DNA of 64,000 nucleotides from Escherichia coli (GTDB lineage: Bacteria > Pseudomonadota > Gammaproteobacteria > Enterobacterales > Enterobacteriaceae): the NCBI RefSeq assembly GCF_009931435.1, contig NZ_CP043414.1; one strand, given 5' to 3'. The translations under genes were made by a program, and so were the position numbers. The notes below the pieces were generated by a model. The model was not told the origin of the DNA, did no database searches, and saw only the letters and a program-made list of their open reading frames with translations. Positions 1-43,231 of this stretch are shown here, one piece after another (the first letter of the stretch is position 1; every line of letters starts with the position of its first letter).

Positions 1-53
1 CGGTGAGGCGCAATGTTGCGGGGGCTTAATCCCTGGTGGCATTGGTTGCTGGA

Positions 54-121
54 GAGAGAAAACCCCCGCACGTTGCAGATATTCACCTGACAACATCACG
101 GGGGCTAATCTTGAACCTAGA
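54..121 (-). ncRNA. rdl: Candidate Rdl antisense sRNA, unit 1 (position approximate)
   Basis: Nested hairpin (cccccg...caggt/acctg...cggggg) preceded on the + strand by gagagagaaaa, which reads as hairpin plus U-run on the - strand, about 50 nt upstream of the ldr ATG. Rdl is known to be encoded antisense to the ldr leader. Confidence 0.3.
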
Positions 122-170
122 CCACTCAAGAATAGCCGCGAAACGTTGTCATTACAACACAGGCGGCTAT

Positions 171-278
171 ATGACGCTCGCAGAACTGGGCATGGCCTTC
201 TGGCATGATTTAGCGGCTCCGGTCATTGCTGGCATTCTTGCCAGCATGATCGTGAACTGGCTGAATAAGCGGAAGTAA
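171..278 (+). CDS. ldr: Ldr type I toxin peptide, copy 1 (35 aa, MTLAELGMAFWHDLAAPVIAGILASMIVNWLNKRK)
   Basis: 35-codon ORF closely matching the K-12 LdrD peptide as recalled; followed by a stem-loop terminator. Confidence 0.85.
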   Translation: MTLAELGMAFWHDLAAPVIAGILASMIVNWLNKRK

Positions 279-328
279 CGTGTCAGACGGGCGTCAGGCT
301 GCCGTAATGGCAATTTGCGCCCGGACCA

Positions 329-362
329 GGCCGCAGAGATAAAACTCTGCGGCCTTTTTCGT
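329..362 (+). terminator. Intrinsic terminator after ldr copy 1
   Basis: GGCCGCAG...CTGCGGCC stem-loop followed by TTTTT. Confidence 0.6.
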
Positions 363-536
363 AAGAAAAATGCAACGGTTGCAAGCGGATAATATTCTGC
401 GGAATGCGCAGCACAGAGTGAAGAAGTGATGGATTCTGGAACAGAAAAACAGTCGTAGAATCAGCAGCAAGCCGGAAGGGTTCCGGTGAGGCGCAATGTT
501 GCGGGGGCTTTATCCCTGGTGGCATTGGTTGCTGGA

Positions 537-604
537 GAGAGAAAACCCCCGCACGTTGCAGGTATGCACCTGACAACATCACGGGGGCCATTCTTGCATC
601 CAAA
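537..604 (-). ncRNA. rdl: Candidate Rdl antisense sRNA, unit 2 (approximate)
   Basis: Same hairpin plus U-run structure at the equivalent position in unit 2. Confidence 0.3.
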
Positions 605-653
605 CAATACAAGAATAGCCGCGAAACGTTGTCATTACAACAGAGGCGGCTAT

Positions 654-761
654 ATGACGCTCGCAGAACTGGGCATGGCCTTCTGGCATGATTTAGCGGC
701 TCCGGTCATTGCTGGCATTCTTGCCAGTCTGATCGTGAACTGGCTGAACAAGCGGAAGTAA
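654..761 (+). CDS. ldr: Ldr type I toxin peptide, copy 2 (35 aa, ...ASLIVNWLNKRK)
   Basis: Same 35-codon ORF in repeat unit 2; M26L relative to copy 1. Confidence 0.85.
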   Translation: MTLAELGMAFWHDLAAPVIAGILASLIVNWLNKRK

Positions 762-811
762 CGTGTCAGACGGGCGTCAGGCTGCCGTAATGGCAATTTG
801 CGCCCGGACCA

Positions 812-845
812 GGCCGCAGGGATAAAACTCTGCGGCCTTTTTCGT
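812..845 (+). terminator. Intrinsic terminator after ldr copy 2
   Basis: Same GC stem-loop plus T-run. Confidence 0.6.
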
Positions 846-1020
846 AAGAAAAATGCAACGGTTGCAAGCGGATAATATTCTGCGGAATGCGCAGCACAGA
901 GTGAAGAAGTGATGGATTTCGACGAACAAAAATGGCCGTAGAATCAGCGGCAAGCCGGAAGGGTTCCGGTGAGGCGCAATGTTGCGGGGGGCTTTATCCC
1001 TGGTGGCATTGGTTGCTGGA

Positions 1021-1088
1021 GAGAGAAAACCCCCGCACGTTGCAGGTATGCACCTGACAACACCACGGGGGCCATTCTTGCATCTAGA
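1021..1088 (-). ncRNA. rdl: Candidate Rdl antisense sRNA, unit 3 (approximate)
   Basis: Same structure at the equivalent position in unit 3. Confidence 0.3.
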
Positions 1089-1137
1089 CCATTCAAGAAT
1101 AGCCGCGAAACGTTGTCATTACAACACTGGCGGCTAT

Positions 1138-1245
1138 ATGACGCTCGCAGAGCTGGGCATGGCCTTCTGGCACGATTTAGCGGCTCCGGTCATTGCTGGC
1201 ATTCTTGCCAGTCTGATCGTGAACTGGCTGAACAAGCGGAAGTAA
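1138..1245 (+). CDS. ldr: Ldr type I toxin peptide, copy 3
   Basis: Same ORF in repeat unit 3; peptide identical to copy 2. Confidence 0.85.
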   Translation: MTLAELGMAFWHDLAAPVIAGILASLIVNWLNKRK

Positions 1246-1295
1246 CGTGTCGGACGAGCGTCAGGCTGCCGTAATGGCAATTTGCGCCCGGACCA

Positions 1296-1328
1296 GGCCG
1301 CAGGGATAAAACTCTGCGGCCTTTTTCG
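1296..1328 (+). terminator. Intrinsic terminator after ldr copy 3
   Basis: Same GC stem-loop plus T-run. Confidence 0.6.
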
Positions 1329-1504
1329 TAAGAAAAATGCAACGGTTGCAAGCGGATAATATTCTGCGGAATGCGCAGCACAGAGTGAAGAAGTGATGGA
1401 TTTCGACGAACAAAAATGGCCGTAGAATCAGCGGCAAGCCGGAAGGGTTCCGGTGAGGCGCAATGTTGCGGGGGGCTTTATCCCTGGTGGCATTGGTTGC
1501 TGGA

Positions 1505-1572
1505 GAGAGAAAACCCCCGCACGTTGCAGGTATGCACCTGACAACACCACGGGGGCCATTCTTGCATCTAGA
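1505..1572 (-). ncRNA. rdl: Candidate Rdl antisense sRNA, unit 4 (approximate)
   Basis: Same structure at the equivalent position in unit 4. Confidence 0.3.
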
Positions 1573-1621
1573 CCATTCAAGAATAGCCGCGAAACGTTGT
1601 CATTACAACACTGGCGGCTAT

Positions 1622-1729
1622 ATGACGCTCGCAGAGCTGGGCATGGCCTTCTGGCACGATTTAGCGGCTCCGGTCATTGCTGGCATTCTTGCCAGTCTGA
1701 TCGTGAACTGGCTGAACAAGCGGAAGTAA
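1622..1729 (+). CDS. ldr: Ldr type I toxin peptide, copy 4
   Basis: Same ORF in repeat unit 4; unit appears identical to unit 3. Confidence 0.85.
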   Translation: MTLAELGMAFWHDLAAPVIAGILASLIVNWLNKRK

Positions 1730-1779
1730 CGTGTCGGACGAGCGTCAGGCTGCCGTAATGGCAATTTGCGCCCGGACCA

Positions 1780-1812
1780 GGCCGCAGGGATAAAACTCTG
1801 CGGCCTTTTTCG
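1780..1812 (+). terminator. Intrinsic terminator after ldr copy 4
   Basis: Same GC stem-loop plus T-run. Confidence 0.6.
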
Positions 1813-1987
1813 TAAGAAAAATGCAACGGTTGCAAGCGGATAATATTCTGCGGAATGTGCAGCACAGAGTGAAGAAGTGATGGATTCCGGAACAGAAAAA
1901 CAGTCGTAGAATCAGCGGCAAGCCGGAAGGGTTCCGGTGAGGCGCAATGTTGCGGGGGCTTAATCCCTGGTGGCATTGGTTGCTGGA

Positions 1988-2055
1988 GAGAGAAAACCCC
2001 CGCACGTTGCAGGTATGCACCTGACAACATCACGGGGGCTAATCTTGAACCCAAA
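1988..2055 (-). ncRNA. rdl: Candidate Rdl antisense sRNA, unit 5 (approximate)
   Basis: Same structure at the equivalent position in unit 5. Confidence 0.3.
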
Positions 2056-2104
2056 CAACTCAAGAATAGCCGCGAAACGTTGTCATTACAACAGAGGCGG
2101 CTAT

Positions 2105-2212
2105 ATGACGCTCGCAGAACTGGGCATGGCCTTCTGGCATGATTTAGCGGCTCCGGTCATTGCTGGCATTCTTGCCAGTCTGATCGTGAACTCGCTGAAT
2201 AAGCGGAAGTAA
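2105..2212 (+). CDS. ldr: Ldr type I toxin peptide, copy 5, variant (...ASLIVNSLNKRK, Trp30 to Ser)
   Basis: Same ORF frame in repeat unit 5; tgg to tcg change read directly in the sequence. Confidence 0.8.
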   Translation: MTLAELGMAFWHDLAAPVIAGILASLIVNSLNKRK

Positions 2213-2262
2213 CGTGTCATGCGGGCGTCAGGCTGCCGTAATGGCAATTTGCGCCCGGATCA

Positions 2263-2295
2263 GGCCGCAGGGGTGAAACTCTGCGGCCTTTTTCG
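2263..2295 (+). terminator. Intrinsic terminator after ldr copy 5, convergent with the bcsG 3' end
   Basis: Same GC stem-loop plus T-run, ending 4 nt before the bcsG stop. Confidence 0.6.
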
Positions 2296-2298
2296 TTC

Positions 2299-3978
2299 TT
2301 ATTGCGGGTAAGGCACCCAGTCGCCGCCGTTCAGGCGAACGTACGGTTTATCCTGGTATTGAATAACCACTGCATTTGAGTTCTCGGAGACCGGTGCTGT
2401 TTGTGGCAACCCACTGGTGAGTTTTTTCCAGTCAACATTGTCTTCGGTGAAAATCTTACCATCAAGAACGCGAACCACCAGATCGGAGATAGCCAGGAAG
2501 CTGCTCGGTTGGTCGATGACAATCGGTGCCCCCTGATGTGGTGCCTTCATGCCGAAGAATTTCACCCCAACGGGGACGTCTGTGATAGACGGGCTAGGGA
2601 TATCACGTAGGCCAGATACCTGCATTCTGTCGCCCTTCAGCGCGCCACCGTGTTCCGGCACCACTACCACCATCACTTTACGACCCGATTTCTCCAGTTC
2701 AGTAAAGAAGGCGTCCAGCTCATCAAAGAATTTCTGCGCTCGCGCTTTGTAATCCGCTGTTTTGCTGACGCCCGGATAATGGTTGCCGTCATGCAGTGGA
2801 AGCGTGTTGTAGAACGTGGCACTACGGCTGTTTTTATCTTTTTCGGTAACGTCCAGCCAGCGGTTAAGCACGGCGGTATCGTCATAAACCGGCGAACCAT
2901 CAAAGCCCAGCAAAATAACCGGCAGATTTGTTTGATCCATCAATTCGGTCTGCATGCCGCCATTTTCGCGAACTTCTTTCAAAAAACCGCCGAACTGGCC
3001 GTTATGTCCCATCATCAGGTGCTGGGTAAAGCCCAGTTTCGACAGGTTATCAAACAGATAGCAGTCGTTATTTGCCGGTTGATACAGATTAGTGTGCGAA
3101 GTCTGCCCGCAGCTGGCGCGCAGTAAACGGATCGCCGCCGGGCCACTGTAGGAGGTGGCGGAGTTAAAGTTCTTGAACTCAATATCGAAATGCGACCACA
3201 GCGGATGCGACATCAACCCGGCGGCTTCAATATCCGACCAGGAAAGCGAACAGATATTAATCACCAGTAGTTCAAATGGCTGAGCATCAGCGGGCAGCGA
3301 AGACGGGAAGGTCGATTTACGTTTCGCCTCCGCGTTATAGAAATTATTCAACCAGGCGTTAAGGTTCGCCGTTGTTGGCGGTGCAGTTTGTGCGGGCATA
3401 TCACCCACTACCGGTGCGCCACCCGTCGCCGCAACGGTTGCCGCTGCGTTACCACCCGTCGTTGTTACAGTGGTCGTCGGTTGACCGGCAGGCCACAAGG
3501 AGAAACTTGGTCCCGCCAGGGTAAGTACGTTCAGCCATAGCAGAATGGCAACCACAAAAACGGTAATGCGAATCCATTGTGACAGGAATAACCAGGCCAC
3601 TAATAAAACAAAAATGGCCCCAATCATCTGCCAGTTAATAAAGCGTGTGACAAGGTCGATTAAATAATCGGTACTGAACCCCGCCACCTGCGAACCCTGG
3701 CTCATTATGCTTTCCGGGCCCGGCAACCAGGTGTCATGCCAGAACAAAGCAAAGCCGATCGGCAGGGCAATCCAGTGGCGTAAGCGATGCAGGCTGTAGC
3801 GCGGAATGGGCATCAGCAGAAACGCGGCAAACACCAGATTGAGGAGCGGATGGAAGTTAAGATATCCCGCCCACAACAGGCCGAACTTAACCAGAAAATA
3901 GAAGTTCCAGCCGGAAAGGCCGCGCCAGTATTGCCAGAGGGAAGAAGGCATGGCGGTATTTTGCGTAAATTGAGTCAT
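2299..3978 (-). CDS. bcsG: Cellulose biosynthesis protein BcsG (phosphoethanolamine transferase)
   Basis: 559-aa ORF with N-terminal membrane segments and alkaline-phosphatase-like C-terminal domain; matches E. coli BcsG in sequence and position. Confidence 0.95.
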
Positions 3979-37138: not shown

Positions 37139-37154
37139 AGTTTTACTCAGACAT

Positions 37155-37260
37155 AAAAAAAACCCGGCATAGGGGACCGGGAAGAGGATAGTCTGCCGTC
37201 TCCAGACTAATAAACCGTTATAACACTCCCTGTTGGCACGGGAAACTTTGTGCTCTCAGT
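37155..37260 (-). ncRNA. gadY: GadY small RNA, antisense to the gadX 3' UTR
   Basis: Reverse complement begins ACTGAGAGCACAAAGTTTCCCGTGCCAACAGGG... and ends in CCCGGTCCCCTATGCCGGGTTTTTTTT, matching GadY as recalled. Confidence 0.8.
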
Positions 37261-37506
37261 AAGTTAAATATAACTTTTACTGGAAATAAGATCAGCCATT
37301 TTTTTATAAACATAAGCTATACGCTGTGTGAAAATATATTGGTGTTGCATTTACTTATTATCAATTAACTGTTATGCAAAACTACTTTGTGGATAAATTT
37401 TGGTCCTACCAAATATGGCAGTTTTTGCACTAAGAAACAGTCTGGCGTCATTTCATTAGTATACTGAAATTGAAATAATCGCAGTAATGAAATATAAGGG
37501 ATAGTC

Positions 37507-42893: not shown

Positions 42894-43231
42894 TTTAGTC
42901 CCTGAAAATTCTTGAGATATAACGGTTCTTTAAATTGCGCGCGAGGAGAGGTATGAGGGATTTACAGACCAGCGGCATAGTGGGGTTGTCAGCCAGTAAG
43001 ATGGGATGCAAGCACAGTGATCGACATGGTGAGGTCAACGACAAAAAAAATGTTGCCGTTCTGCCAACAGTTCCTGCCAGCATTCGGGCAACGAAGGGTT
43101 CTACTGGTGGATACACATACCAGGGGAATAAAGTCGTTTTCGCCTCTCCTTTAGTCATCACCGGGGATAATGAAATCAGCATCTGCATCCCTCTTCATGC
43201 CTGCCATCATTTTCAGTTAATTATGTCCTGA

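What the first reader, a model, noticed from the sequence alone, without database searches (positions are those of the whole stretch)
1..2295. Five-copy tandem Ldr/Rdl type I toxin-antitoxin array next to bcsG
Five consecutive 484-bp units each carry an intact 35-aa Ldr ORF and its own terminator. K-12 is recalled to have a single ldrD/rdlD unit at this position. Units 3 and 4 look identical, suggesting recent duplication, while units 1 and 5 share a different segment upstream of the ORF (ctaatcttgaacc versus cattcttgcatc) and a different inter-unit spacer, so the array is mosaic.
Basis: partly seen in the sequence, partly recalled or inferred. Interest (0 to 1): 0.55.

Follow-up and report, generated by a model that had tools for sequence, protein, structure and literature searches.

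The report
Five-copy Ldr/Rdl toxin-antitoxin repeat array
This is a genuine tandem array of five small toxin/antisense-RNA modules (Ldr/Rdl) beside the cellulose gene bcsG, but it is ordinary: the number of modules at this site varies from one to five among E. coli strains and five-copy arrays are already annotated in public genomes.

Summary
Window 1-2296 contains five head-to-tail LDR units of 483-484 bp. Each has an intact 35-aa Ldr ORF (Pfam PF13940), an Rfam rdlD antisense RNA gene on the opposite strand over the 5' UTR, and terminators on both strands. The array abuts bcsG and touches the window's left edge.

Units 3 and 4 are identical for only 407 nt and their spacers differ. More exactly, 774-1373 equals 1258-1857, the footprint of a recent one-unit duplication. 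Unit 5 has no downstream spacer; the unusual spacer follows units 1 and 4.

The array is not novel:
- In 5,426 complete E. coli genomes the yhjV-bcsG site carries 1-5 units. A systematic sample of 59 gave about 39% with one, 12% two, 32% three, 15% four and 2% five.
- At least 39 genomes have five copies, including SMS-3-5 and 042.
- Genomes with the closest flanks have 1, 2, 2 and 3 copies.
- BL21(DE3) was published with three pairs at this site.

The best explanation is unequal crossing-over and gene conversion among self-contained type I toxin-antitoxin modules.

Minor extras: variation concentrates in the Rdl 5' tail and the putative ldr promoter, and the bcsG-proximal Ldr lacks the signature tryptophan (W29S), a widespread allele. 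Interest is low.

The parts
1..483 (+). LDR unit 1. Its 5' end is cut by the window edge and its promoter lies outside the window. It carries the first-unit type Rdl tail.
484..967 (+). LDR unit 2
968..1451 (+). LDR unit 3 (has the +1 G in the G-run at 986-991)
1452..1934 (+). LDR unit 4. It is identical to unit 3 for 407 nt and is followed by a type A spacer.
1935..2296 (+). LDR unit 5, the bcsG-proximal terminal unit. It has no downstream spacer.
171..278 (+). ldr ORF 1, MTLAELGMAFWHDLAAPVIAGILASMIVNWLNKRK (same sequence as the RefSeq protein WP_001295224.1 annotated in related genomes)
654..761 (+). ldr ORF 2, ...ASLIVNWLNKRK (same sequence as WP_000170738.1)
1138..1245 (+). ldr ORF 3, same peptide as ORF 2
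1622..1729 (+). ldr ORF 4, same peptide as ORF 2
2105..2212 (+). ldr ORF 5, W29S variant ...ASLIVNSLNKRK (same sequence as WP_000170736.1). Pfam Ldr_toxin E=1.2e-23; 32/35 identical to the solved LdrD structure 5LBJ.
57..122 (-). rdl antisense RNA gene 1 (66 nt; 16-nt single-stranded 5' tail followed by a terminator stem-loop)
   Evidence: 85.5 bits
540..605 (-). rdl gene 2
   Evidence: 82.9 bits
1024..1089 (-). rdl gene 3
   Evidence: 81.8 bits
1508..1573 (-). rdl gene 4 (identical to rdl gene 3)
1991..2056 (-). rdl gene 5
   Evidence: 90.4 bits
328..360 (+). ldr intrinsic terminator of unit 1. Equivalent sites lie at 811-838, 1295-1322, 1779-1806 and 2262-2289.
456..461 (+). Putative ldr -10 hexamer TAGAAT for unit 2. 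Equivalents lie at 939-944, 1423-1428 and 1907-1912. The ~28 nt upstream of it is one of the two hypervariable spots. Inferred from the sequence, not mapped.
   Evidence: the consensus scan found no canonical promoter
129..157 (-). Putative rdl promoter of unit 1: -35 TTGTAA (157-152), 17-nt spacer, -10 TATTCT (134-129), with the transcription start 7 nt downstream at 122. It is repeated in each unit (AGAATAGCC at 129, 612, 1096, 1580, 2063). Inferred.
774..1857 (+). Perfectly 484-periodic stretch (774-1373 = 1258-1857), the footprint of a recent single-unit duplication
2299..3978 (-). bcsG (559 aa), the right-hand boundary gene of the LDR-D locus

Best explanation
Window 1-2296 is the LDR-D locus of E. 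coli, the intergenic region between yhjV and bcsG, in an expanded allele of five tandem Ldr/Rdl type I toxin-antitoxin modules.

Each ~484-bp unit is a self-contained cassette:
- a + strand mRNA of roughly 375 nt with a long 5' UTR, a 35-aa membrane toxin ORF (Ldr) and its own intrinsic terminator;
- on the opposite strand, a 66-nt Rdl RNA with its own promoter-like hexamers and terminator, complementary to the ldr 5' UTR upstream of the start codon.

By analogy with K-12 ldrD/rdlD, Rdl pairs with the 5' UTR and blocks toxin translation. The published proposal is that it does so through a leader ORF, as in hok/mok/sok, and the duplex is cut by RNase III.

The array itself is a product of homologous recombination between repeats. 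Unequal crossing-over adds and removes whole units, and gene conversion shuffles short segments between them. This yields a mosaic array with stable terminal units and variable inner units. In this genome the last event was a precise one-unit (484-bp) duplication.

Shown here: the anatomy, family membership, population polymorphism, the duplication footprint and purifying selection on the peptide. Inferred: transcription start sites, expression of every unit, toxicity, Rdl repression and the recombination mechanism.
For: Anatomy and family:
- Period-484 array.
- Five intact ORFs matching Pfam Ldr_toxin at E=1.2e-23 and 32/35 identical to the solved LdrD structure 5LBJ.
- Five full-length Rfam rdlD hits on the minus strand, each folding into a 5' tail plus stem-loop with z-scores of -3.9 to -5.0.
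- Terminators on both strands of every unit.

Synteny:
- yhjV-[Ldr xN]-bcsG in 20 reference genomes.

Polymorphism:
- A systematic sample of 59 loci gave x1 23, x2 7, x3 19, x4 9 and x5 1.
- 39 five-copy genomes appear among the top 60 hits. Eight were checked and all have exactly five units bounded by yhjV and bcsG.
- The genomes with the closest bcs flank (99.2-99.5% identity) carry 2, 1, 3 and 2 units.

Recombination:
- A 600-nt exact repeat lies at offset 484.
- Against the best-matching genome the array is more diverged (44 differences in 2296 nt) than the flank (8 in about 2700 nt).
- Only 8 Rdl-tail haplotypes, built from a few shared modules, occur among 74 units. The terminal units are conserved by position.

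Selection on the peptide:
- 8 distinct synonymous against 7 distinct nonsynonymous changes across 74 ORFs.

Literature:
- ldr/rdl mechanism and the ldrX proposal (PMC4147584; PMC8167048).
- RNase III-dependent dsRNA in the rdlD/ldrD overlap (PMC7373196).
- Three pairs between bcsG and yhjV in BL21(DE3), where RdlD antisense RNAs were located from transcriptome data (PMC5435950).
- Lineage-specific Ldr duplications (PMC2887945).
Against: - No expression data exist for this genome.
- The simple sigma-70 consensus scan found no promoter in the array. The promoters I name match only 8 of 12 positions (rdl) or have a good -10 without a recognisable -35 (ldr).
- Unit 1's promoter lies outside the window.
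- Unit 5's toxin lacks the signature Trp and may be attenuated.
- Units 3 and 4 carry a +1 G that changes the upstream reading frames, with unknown effect.
- The left boundary was not seen, so the count of five is a minimum.
- The 1,084-bp perfectly periodic stretch means the count depends on how the assembly was made.
Confidence: 0.9

Rival explanations
1. Assembly artefact. The true array has fewer (or more) units, and the assembler traversed the perfectly repeated 484-bp block the wrong number of times.
For: Window 774-1857 is perfectly 484-periodic. Reads shorter than about 600 nt cannot distinguish 4, 5 or 6 copies. No genome in the 5,426-genome set matches the array better than 98.3%, so the count cannot be cross-checked against an identical strain.
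Against: Five-copy arrays bounded by yhjV and bcsG exist in at least 8 independently assembled complete genomes, including SMS-3-5 and 042. Even if the periodic block were collapsed, four distinct units would remain. Recent perfect duplications are expected at a locus whose copy number differs among close relatives.
Confidence: 0.1
2. Adaptive diversification. The array encodes several regulatory specificities. The hypervariable Rdl 5' tail acts as a target-recognition domain, so that each Rdl represses mainly its own ldr mRNA, as in Sib/Ibs. The variable region upstream of the ldr -10 gives the units different expression, and selection maintains the expansion.
For: - Polymorphic columns are enriched in the Rdl tail and transcription-start region: 11 of 24 columns against 39 of 338 elsewhere, Fisher p=7.6e-5. 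A second hot spot lies just upstream of the ldr -10.
- The tail is single-stranded in the Rfam consensus and in all five folds.
- Non-cognate pairs in this array have 2-6 mismatches in the 17-nt tail.
- Sib target-recognition domains sit in the hypervariable regions of that paralogous cis-antisense family (PMC2943612).
- The first and last units keep their identity by position across genomes.
Against: - Units within one array often share the same tail: units 3 and 4 here, and three of the five units in SCU-172.
- Because Rdl is cis-encoded, any change in the tail stays complementary to its own target, so relaxed constraint alone predicts higher variability there.
- Predicted folds of the ldr 5' UTR are inconsistent between units, and no conserved target loop could be established.
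- No phenotype has been reported for deleting any Fst/Ldr system (PMC7472228).
Confidence: 0.15
3. Decaying, non-functional repeats. Some or all units are silent relics that persist only because unequal recombination keeps regenerating them.
For: Unit 5 lacks the signature tryptophan. No canonical promoters were found by the scan. No deletion phenotype is known for the family.
Against: - All 74 ORFs examined in 21 arrays are intact and 35 codons long. The ratio of 8 distinct synonymous to 7 distinct nonsynonymous changes is far more synonymous than random mutation would give.
- rdl genes score 82-90 bits over the full model, and the terminators are preserved.
- The W29S allele is the only copy at this site in strain RMDEC465 and is conserved across many genomes.
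- The prototype Fst has Val at the Trp position and is toxic (PMC7472228).
- In BL21(DE3), RdlD antisense RNAs were located at the three-pair array from transcriptome data.
Confidence: 0.05

Closest known systems
ldrD/rdlD (LDR-D) of E. coli K-12, between yhjV and bcsG
   Same: Same locus and orientation next to bcsG. The peptide is 32-34/35 identical. The 66-nt Rdl lies antisense to the 5' UTR. Terminators and promoter-like hexamers are the same.
   Different: K-12 has one unit and this window has five. The K-12 peptide has F3 where all units here have L3. The K-12 Rdl tail haplotype (GTCTAGAGTCAAGATTAG) is absent from this array.
Five-copy yhjV-bcsG Ldr arrays annotated in E. coli SMS-3-5, 042, Z0117EC0005 and at least 36 other complete genomes
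   Same: Same site, same unit length, exactly five units, the same first-unit type and the same W29S last unit. Z0117EC0005 has the same order of peptide variants for units 1-4.
   Different: Sequence identity over the array is at most 98.3%. The order of inner-unit haplotypes differs. The perfect unit-3/unit-4 duplication is specific to this window.
Three ldrD/rdlD pairs between bcsG and yhjV in E. coli BL21(DE3) (PMC5435950)
   Same: Published example of expansion at this exact site, with RdlD antisense RNAs located from transcriptome data. A B-strain array of three units was confirmed here.
   Different: Three units rather than five. The last unit is the K-12-type LdrD, not the W29S allele.
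ldrA-ldrB-ldrC / rdlABC tandem array of K-12
   Same: Tandem organisation of LDR units, each with its own toxin and antisense RNA (PMC4147584).
   Different: It is a different chromosomal locus and a different Ldr subgroup. LdrA is 57% identical to LdrD, and the LdrB and LdrD groups are separate. It was not examined here because it lies outside the window.
Ibs/Sib and Zor/Orz duplicated type I toxin-antitoxin loci
   Same: Tandemly duplicated small-toxin/antisense modules with strain-to-strain copy-number variation. In Sib, hypervariable regions of the antisense RNA determine cognate specificity.
   Different: The toxin families are unrelated. Sib overlaps the whole ibs ORF, and Orz is not perfectly complementary. 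Discrimination has been tested for Sib but not for Rdl.

Membership tests
Ldr/Rdl (LDR) type I toxin-antitoxin family | 35-aa hydrophobic peptide matching the Ldr toxin profile | tested here: met
   Pfam PF13940 Ldr_toxin, E=1.2e-23, residues 1-35 of 35. 32/35 identical to LdrD in PDB 5LBJ. All five ORFs are intact. NCBIfam gave no hit, so that library did not contribute.
Ldr/Rdl (LDR) type I toxin-antitoxin family | Cis-encoded ~60-66-nt antisense RNA (Rdl) on the opposite strand, overlapping the ldr 5' UTR but not the start codon | tested here: met
   Five full-length RF01813 hits at 81.8-90.4 bits (gathering score 50) on the minus strand. Each ends 48 nt upstream of the ldr ATG. Stable folds, z-scores -3.9 to -5.0.
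Ldr/Rdl (LDR) type I toxin-antitoxin family | Embedded in a long direct repeat of about 0.5 kb | tested here: met
   TRF period 484, 4.7 copies, 95% matches. Pairwise unit identity 93-98%.
Fst/Ldr superfamily | Signature tryptophan between the transmembrane helix and the charged C-terminus (PMC2887945; PMC7472228) | tested here: not met
   Met in units 1-4 (W29) but not in unit 5 (S29). The S29 allele is widespread at the bcsG-proximal position, in 16 of 21 arrays. The Fst prototype has Val here and is toxic, so this does not exclude function.
Fst/Ldr superfamily | PXXXG motif in the transmembrane segment and a basic C-terminus | tested here: met
   P17-V-I-A-G21 and C-terminal NKRK are present in all five peptides. 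The motif is described in PMC7472228.
LDR-D locus | Position between yhjV and bcsG | tested here: inconclusive
   bcsG lies 3 nt beyond the array end, at 2299-3978 on the minus strand. The yhjV side is outside the window. In all 20 reference genomes yhjV lies about 305 bp left of the position matching window base 1 or its equivalent.
Type I toxin-antitoxin system (functional definition) | The peptide is toxic when expressed and the antisense RNA represses its translation | not testable with these tools
   Shown for K-12 LdrD/RdlD in the literature. Not tested for these alleles.
Type I toxin-antitoxin system (functional definition) | Both RNAs are transcribed from each unit | not testable with these tools
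   Only promoter-like hexamers and terminators are visible. For BL21(DE3), PMC5435950 reports locating RdlD antisense RNAs at the three-pair array from transcriptome data.

The most novel reading that the evidence does not exclude
The two hypervariable spots may be under diversifying or balancing selection. These are the single-stranded 5' tail of Rdl (with the matching stretch of the ldr 5' UTR) and the ~28 nt upstream of the ldr -10. On this reading a multi-copy array encodes several partly insulated toxin-antitoxin pairs with different expression set-points, and the position-specific first unit and the W29S last unit are kept for distinct roles. The LDR-D locus would then be a natural, rapidly evolving panel of antisense specificities, comparable to Sib/Ibs.
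Probability: 0.15. Interest if true: 0.4.

Novelty: already known. Interest (0 to 1): 0.15.

Why it matters
It matters little as a discovery. The family, the locus, tandem expansion at this locus and the five-copy state are all already in public annotation or papers.

It has some practical value:
- The locus is a fast-changing copy-number polymorphism. Close relatives carry 1, 2, 3 or 5 units, so K-12's single ldrD is not representative of the species.
- The perfectly periodic 1.1-kb stretch is a place where short-read assemblies will miscount.
- The concentration of variation in the Rdl 5' tail and the ldr upstream region gives a cheap, testable lead on what determines Rdl target recognition. 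The mechanism of Rdl repression is still described as unresolved in reviews.

Tried and rejected
- NCBIfam scan of the three peptide variants gave no family. Pfam and PDB were used instead.
- The sigma-70 consensus scan found no promoter in 1-2400. The promoters reported are hand-identified, weaker matches and are marked as inferred.
- Folding the ldr 5' UTR of each unit, to look for a conserved loop presenting the Rdl-tail target (a possible UCUUG...CAAGA hairpin), gave minimum-free-energy structures that differ between units. The candidate stem is invariant, so covariation cannot test it. This line was dropped.
- Strict insulation between paralogues, on the Sib/Ibs model, was considered and downgraded because units within one array often share the same Rdl tail.
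- I tried to find the source strain or an identical array. The best array identity is 98.3% and the best flank identity 99.5%, so no identical genome exists among the 5,426 complete RefSeq genomes and the copy number cannot be cross-checked.
- I could not establish whether arrays of more than five units exist. The search output caps the visible match at the query's five units. The eight five-copy genomes inspected all have exactly five. The maximum of 14 'places' per genome, and one record that reached the 40-piece limit, were not resolved.
- Kawano et al. 2002 (DNA Res; PubMed 11939563), a comparative LDR study, is not in the paper library.
- The exact position of the proposed leader ORF ldrX could not be determined from the papers available.
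Full report
**What is in the sequence**

Window 1-2296 is a single tandem array: period 484, 4.7 copies, 95% matches. Anchoring on the toxin start codons gives five units: 1-483, 484-967, 968-1451, 1452-1934 and 1935-2296.

Each unit contains four elements:
- An intact 35-codon ORF, at 171-278, 654-761, 1138-1245, 1622-1729 and 2105-2212.
- A full-length match to Rfam rdlD (RF01813) on the minus strand. The hits lie at 57-122, 540-605, 1024-1089, 1508-1573 and 1991-2056 and score 82-90 bits against a gathering score of 50.
- A strong + strand terminator after the ORF.
- A minus-strand terminator that forms the 3' end of Rdl. In total, ten terminator-like sites were found against 2.5 expected from shuffles.

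The peptide matches Pfam Ldr_toxin over its full length (E=1.2e-23). It is 32/35 identical to the solved LdrD structure 5LBJ. The ORF at 2299-3978 on the minus strand, immediately to the right, is bcsG by synteny with annotated genomes.

The array starts at window base 1. Its left boundary and the promoter of unit 1 were therefore not seen.

Pairwise identity between units is 93.1-97.7%. Units 3 and 4 are identical over the first 407 columns, which cover the 5' UTR, rdl, the ORF and the terminator. They differ at 11 positions in the spacer that follows.

The exact statement is that 774-1373 equals 1258-1857, a 600-nt repeat at offset 484. The stretch 774-1857 is therefore perfectly 484-periodic. 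This is the footprint of a precise, recent one-unit duplication in what was a four-unit array.

Units 1 and 5 do share CTAATCTTGAACC where units 2-4 have CCATTCTTGCATC. Unit 5, however, has no downstream spacer. The distinct 'type A' spacer follows units 1 and 4, and 'type B' follows units 2 and 3.

All five ORFs are intact. The peptides are not identical: unit 1 has M26, units 2-4 have L26, and unit 5 has L26 plus W29S.

**How common it is**

All but one of the 5,426 complete RefSeq E. coli genomes match the region. An evenly spaced sample down the ranking, 59 loci adjacent to bcsG, gave these annotated Ldr gene counts at the site:

| Units | Loci | Share |
|---|---|---|
| 1 | 23 | 39% |
| 2 | 7 | 12% |
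| 3 | 19 | 32% |
| 4 | 9 | 15% |
| 5 | 1 | 2% |

The 60 best hits include 39 genomes with five. I inspected eight of them: Z0117EC0005, MFDS1022581, SMS-3-5, 042, SCU-172, MSB1_4I, M172-1 and AF3. All have exactly five Ldr genes bounded by yhjV and bcsG. K-12 and O157:H7 have one, and a B strain has three.

The four genomes whose bcs flank is closest to the window (99.2-99.5% over 8 kb) carry 2, 1, 3 and 2 units. Other members of the same flank cluster carry five. Copy number therefore changes quickly relative to flanking divergence.

The five-copy state is rare, about 1%. It is the upper end of a common polymorphism, and K-12's single copy is not the norm.

No genome matches this array better than 98.3%. 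Against the best-matching genome the array has 44 differences in 2296 nt, whereas the adjacent bcs genes have 8 in about 2700 nt. That is what gene conversion and unit reshuffling would produce.

**What is already published**

- Four LDR repeats in K-12, three of them in tandem, each with ldr and rdl; LdrD toxicity and rescue by RdlD (PMC4147584; PMC8309996).
- The Ldr/Fst superfamily and the conclusion that these loci evolve by lineage-specific duplication. Ldr/Fst counts of 2-10 are given for the listed Escherichia, Shigella and Salmonella genomes (PMC2887945).
- The explicit statement that BL21(DE3) has three ldrD/rdlD pairs between bcsG and yhjV where K-12 has one. In that paper RdlD antisense RNAs were located from transcriptome data (PMC5435950).

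NCBI's PGAP pipeline already annotates all five toxins in the five-copy genomes. I found no paper that surveys copy number at this particular site across the species. The phenomenon itself is not new.

**How it most likely works**

Each unit looks like an autonomous cassette. Rdl is a 66-nt RNA with a 16-nt single-stranded 5' tail followed by a long terminator hairpin. It is complementary to the ldr 5' UTR, 49-114 nt upstream of the ATG.

On the minus strand a -35 TTGTAA, a 17-nt spacer and a -10 TATTCT sit exactly 7 nt upstream of the Rfam-defined Rdl 5' end in every unit.

On the + strand a conserved TAGAAT lies in each spacer, at 456, 939, 1423 and 1907. A start about 7 nt downstream would give a transcript of about 375 nt ending at the terminator. 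I recall that this agrees with the published size of the ldrD mRNA. That size comes from memory, and the start sites are inferred.

From the literature, Rdl represses translation rather than covering the ribosome-binding site. A leader ORF (ldrX) coupled to ldr has been proposed but not proven. RNase III-dependent ~21-nt dsRNA forms in the rdlD/ldrD overlap.

The peptide is under purifying selection. Across 74 ORFs from 21 arrays there are 8 distinct synonymous and 7 distinct nonsynonymous changes, and no ORF is disrupted.

The array architecture is best explained by unequal homologous recombination between the ~484-bp repeats together with gene conversion. The evidence is the perfect one-unit duplication, the mosaic sharing of short segments, the excess divergence of the array over its flanks and the different copy numbers in close relatives.

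**Population structure of the units**

Among 74 units there are only eight Rdl 5'-tail haplotypes, built from a few recurring modules.
- The yhjV-proximal unit almost always has GTCTAGGTTCAAGATTAG. The window's unit 1 has it too, which argues that unit 1 is the true first unit and the array has five.
- The bcsG-proximal unit almost always has GTTTGGGTTCAAGATTAG together with the W29S peptide, in 16 of 21 arrays.

The terminal units are thus stable, and the inner units come and go.

Variation along the unit is concentrated in two places:
- The Rdl 5' tail and the few bases upstream of its start: 11 of 24 columns are polymorphic, against 39 of 338 elsewhere (Fisher p=7.6e-5).
- The ~28 nt upstream of the ldr -10 hexamer.

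In this window, non-cognate Rdl/ldr pairs have 3-8 mismatches over the 66-nt overlap, 2-6 of them in the tail. Units 3 and 4 are identical.

This resembles the Sib/Ibs family, where target-recognition domains lie in the hypervariable regions and confer cognate specificity (PMC2943612). Two points count against the same conclusion here:
- Units within one array often share a tail.
- A cis-encoded antisense RNA stays complementary to its own target whatever mutates, so relaxed constraint is a sufficient explanation.

I keep specificity as a minority hypothesis (about 0.15).

**Caveats**

- The count of five rests on the assembly. The 1,084-bp perfectly periodic block cannot be resolved by short reads. 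I give the artefact explanation about 0.1, and even then four distinct units remain.
- The left end is outside the window.
- No expression or toxicity data exist for these alleles.
- W29S removes the superfamily's signature tryptophan. It is, however, a widespread allele and the only copy at this site in one genome. The Fst prototype lacks the tryptophan and is toxic.

**Verdict**

The feature is real and correctly identified. Several details needed correcting, and the 'five versus one' contrast with K-12 overstates its unusualness. It is an already known kind of locus in an already annotated state. Interest is 0.15.

Noticed in passing
window 986-991 and 1470-1475 (G-run); ORFs 979-1245 and 1463-1729 (+): Units 3 and 4 have one extra G in the G-run of the ldr 5' UTR. 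In units 1, 2 and 5 an upstream ATG (13, 496, 1947) opens a 25-aa ORF, MLRGL[NY]PWWHWLLERENPRTLQ.., that ends inside the Rdl-complementary region. With the extra G the same ATG is in frame with ldr and gives an 88-aa ORF running to the Ldr stop. The G6 form occurs in 17 of 74 units from 21 arrays. I could not determine whether either ORF is translated or relates to the proposed leader ldrX.
   Followed up: partly
window 2105-2212 (unit 5 ORF): The bcsG-proximal Ldr carries W29S and so lacks the Fst/Ldr signature tryptophan. This allele (same sequence as WP_000170736.1) sits at the last position in 13 of 21 arrays examined, 16 counting close variants. It is the only Ldr at this site in strain RMDEC465.
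   Followed up: yes
related loci L017-L020 versus L001-L002: Genomes sharing nearly the same bcs flank haplotype (99.2-99.5% to the window) carry 1, 2, 2, 3 or 5 LDR units. The two-unit arrays consist of just the window's unit-1 type and unit-5 type.
   Followed up: yes
window 61495-61577 and 61728-61812 (-): Two Rfam AgrB hits of about 90 bits. AgrB is the antisense RNA of the dinQ/agrB type I toxin-antitoxin locus. This is a second duplicated antisense-RNA locus in the same window.
   Followed up: no
window 37150-37263 (-), 43043-43114 (-), 52786-52817 (+): Rfam hits to GadY sRNA (150 bits), ES205 sRNA (105 bits) and the shuA/chuA 5' UTR thermoregulator (60 bits against a gathering score of 58). 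The last implies a chuA haem-uptake locus, which is absent from K-12-like strains.
   Followed up: no
E. coli genome search output: About 30 LDR-like matches lie on plasmids rather than chromosomes. One record reached the 40-piece limit, and some genomes show up to 14 matching 'places'. Arrays larger than five, or extra LDR loci, may therefore exist. I did not identify them.
   Followed up: no
hit H99 (NZ_CM129890.1) and H100 (NZ_CP053736.1): In one genome the yhjV-bcsG LDR region has an integrase-core (insertion sequence) gene under the match. Another hit shows an IS150 next to two Ldr genes at 81% identity, probably the other (ldrABC-type) locus. Insertion sequences therefore also remodel these arrays.
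   Followed up: no
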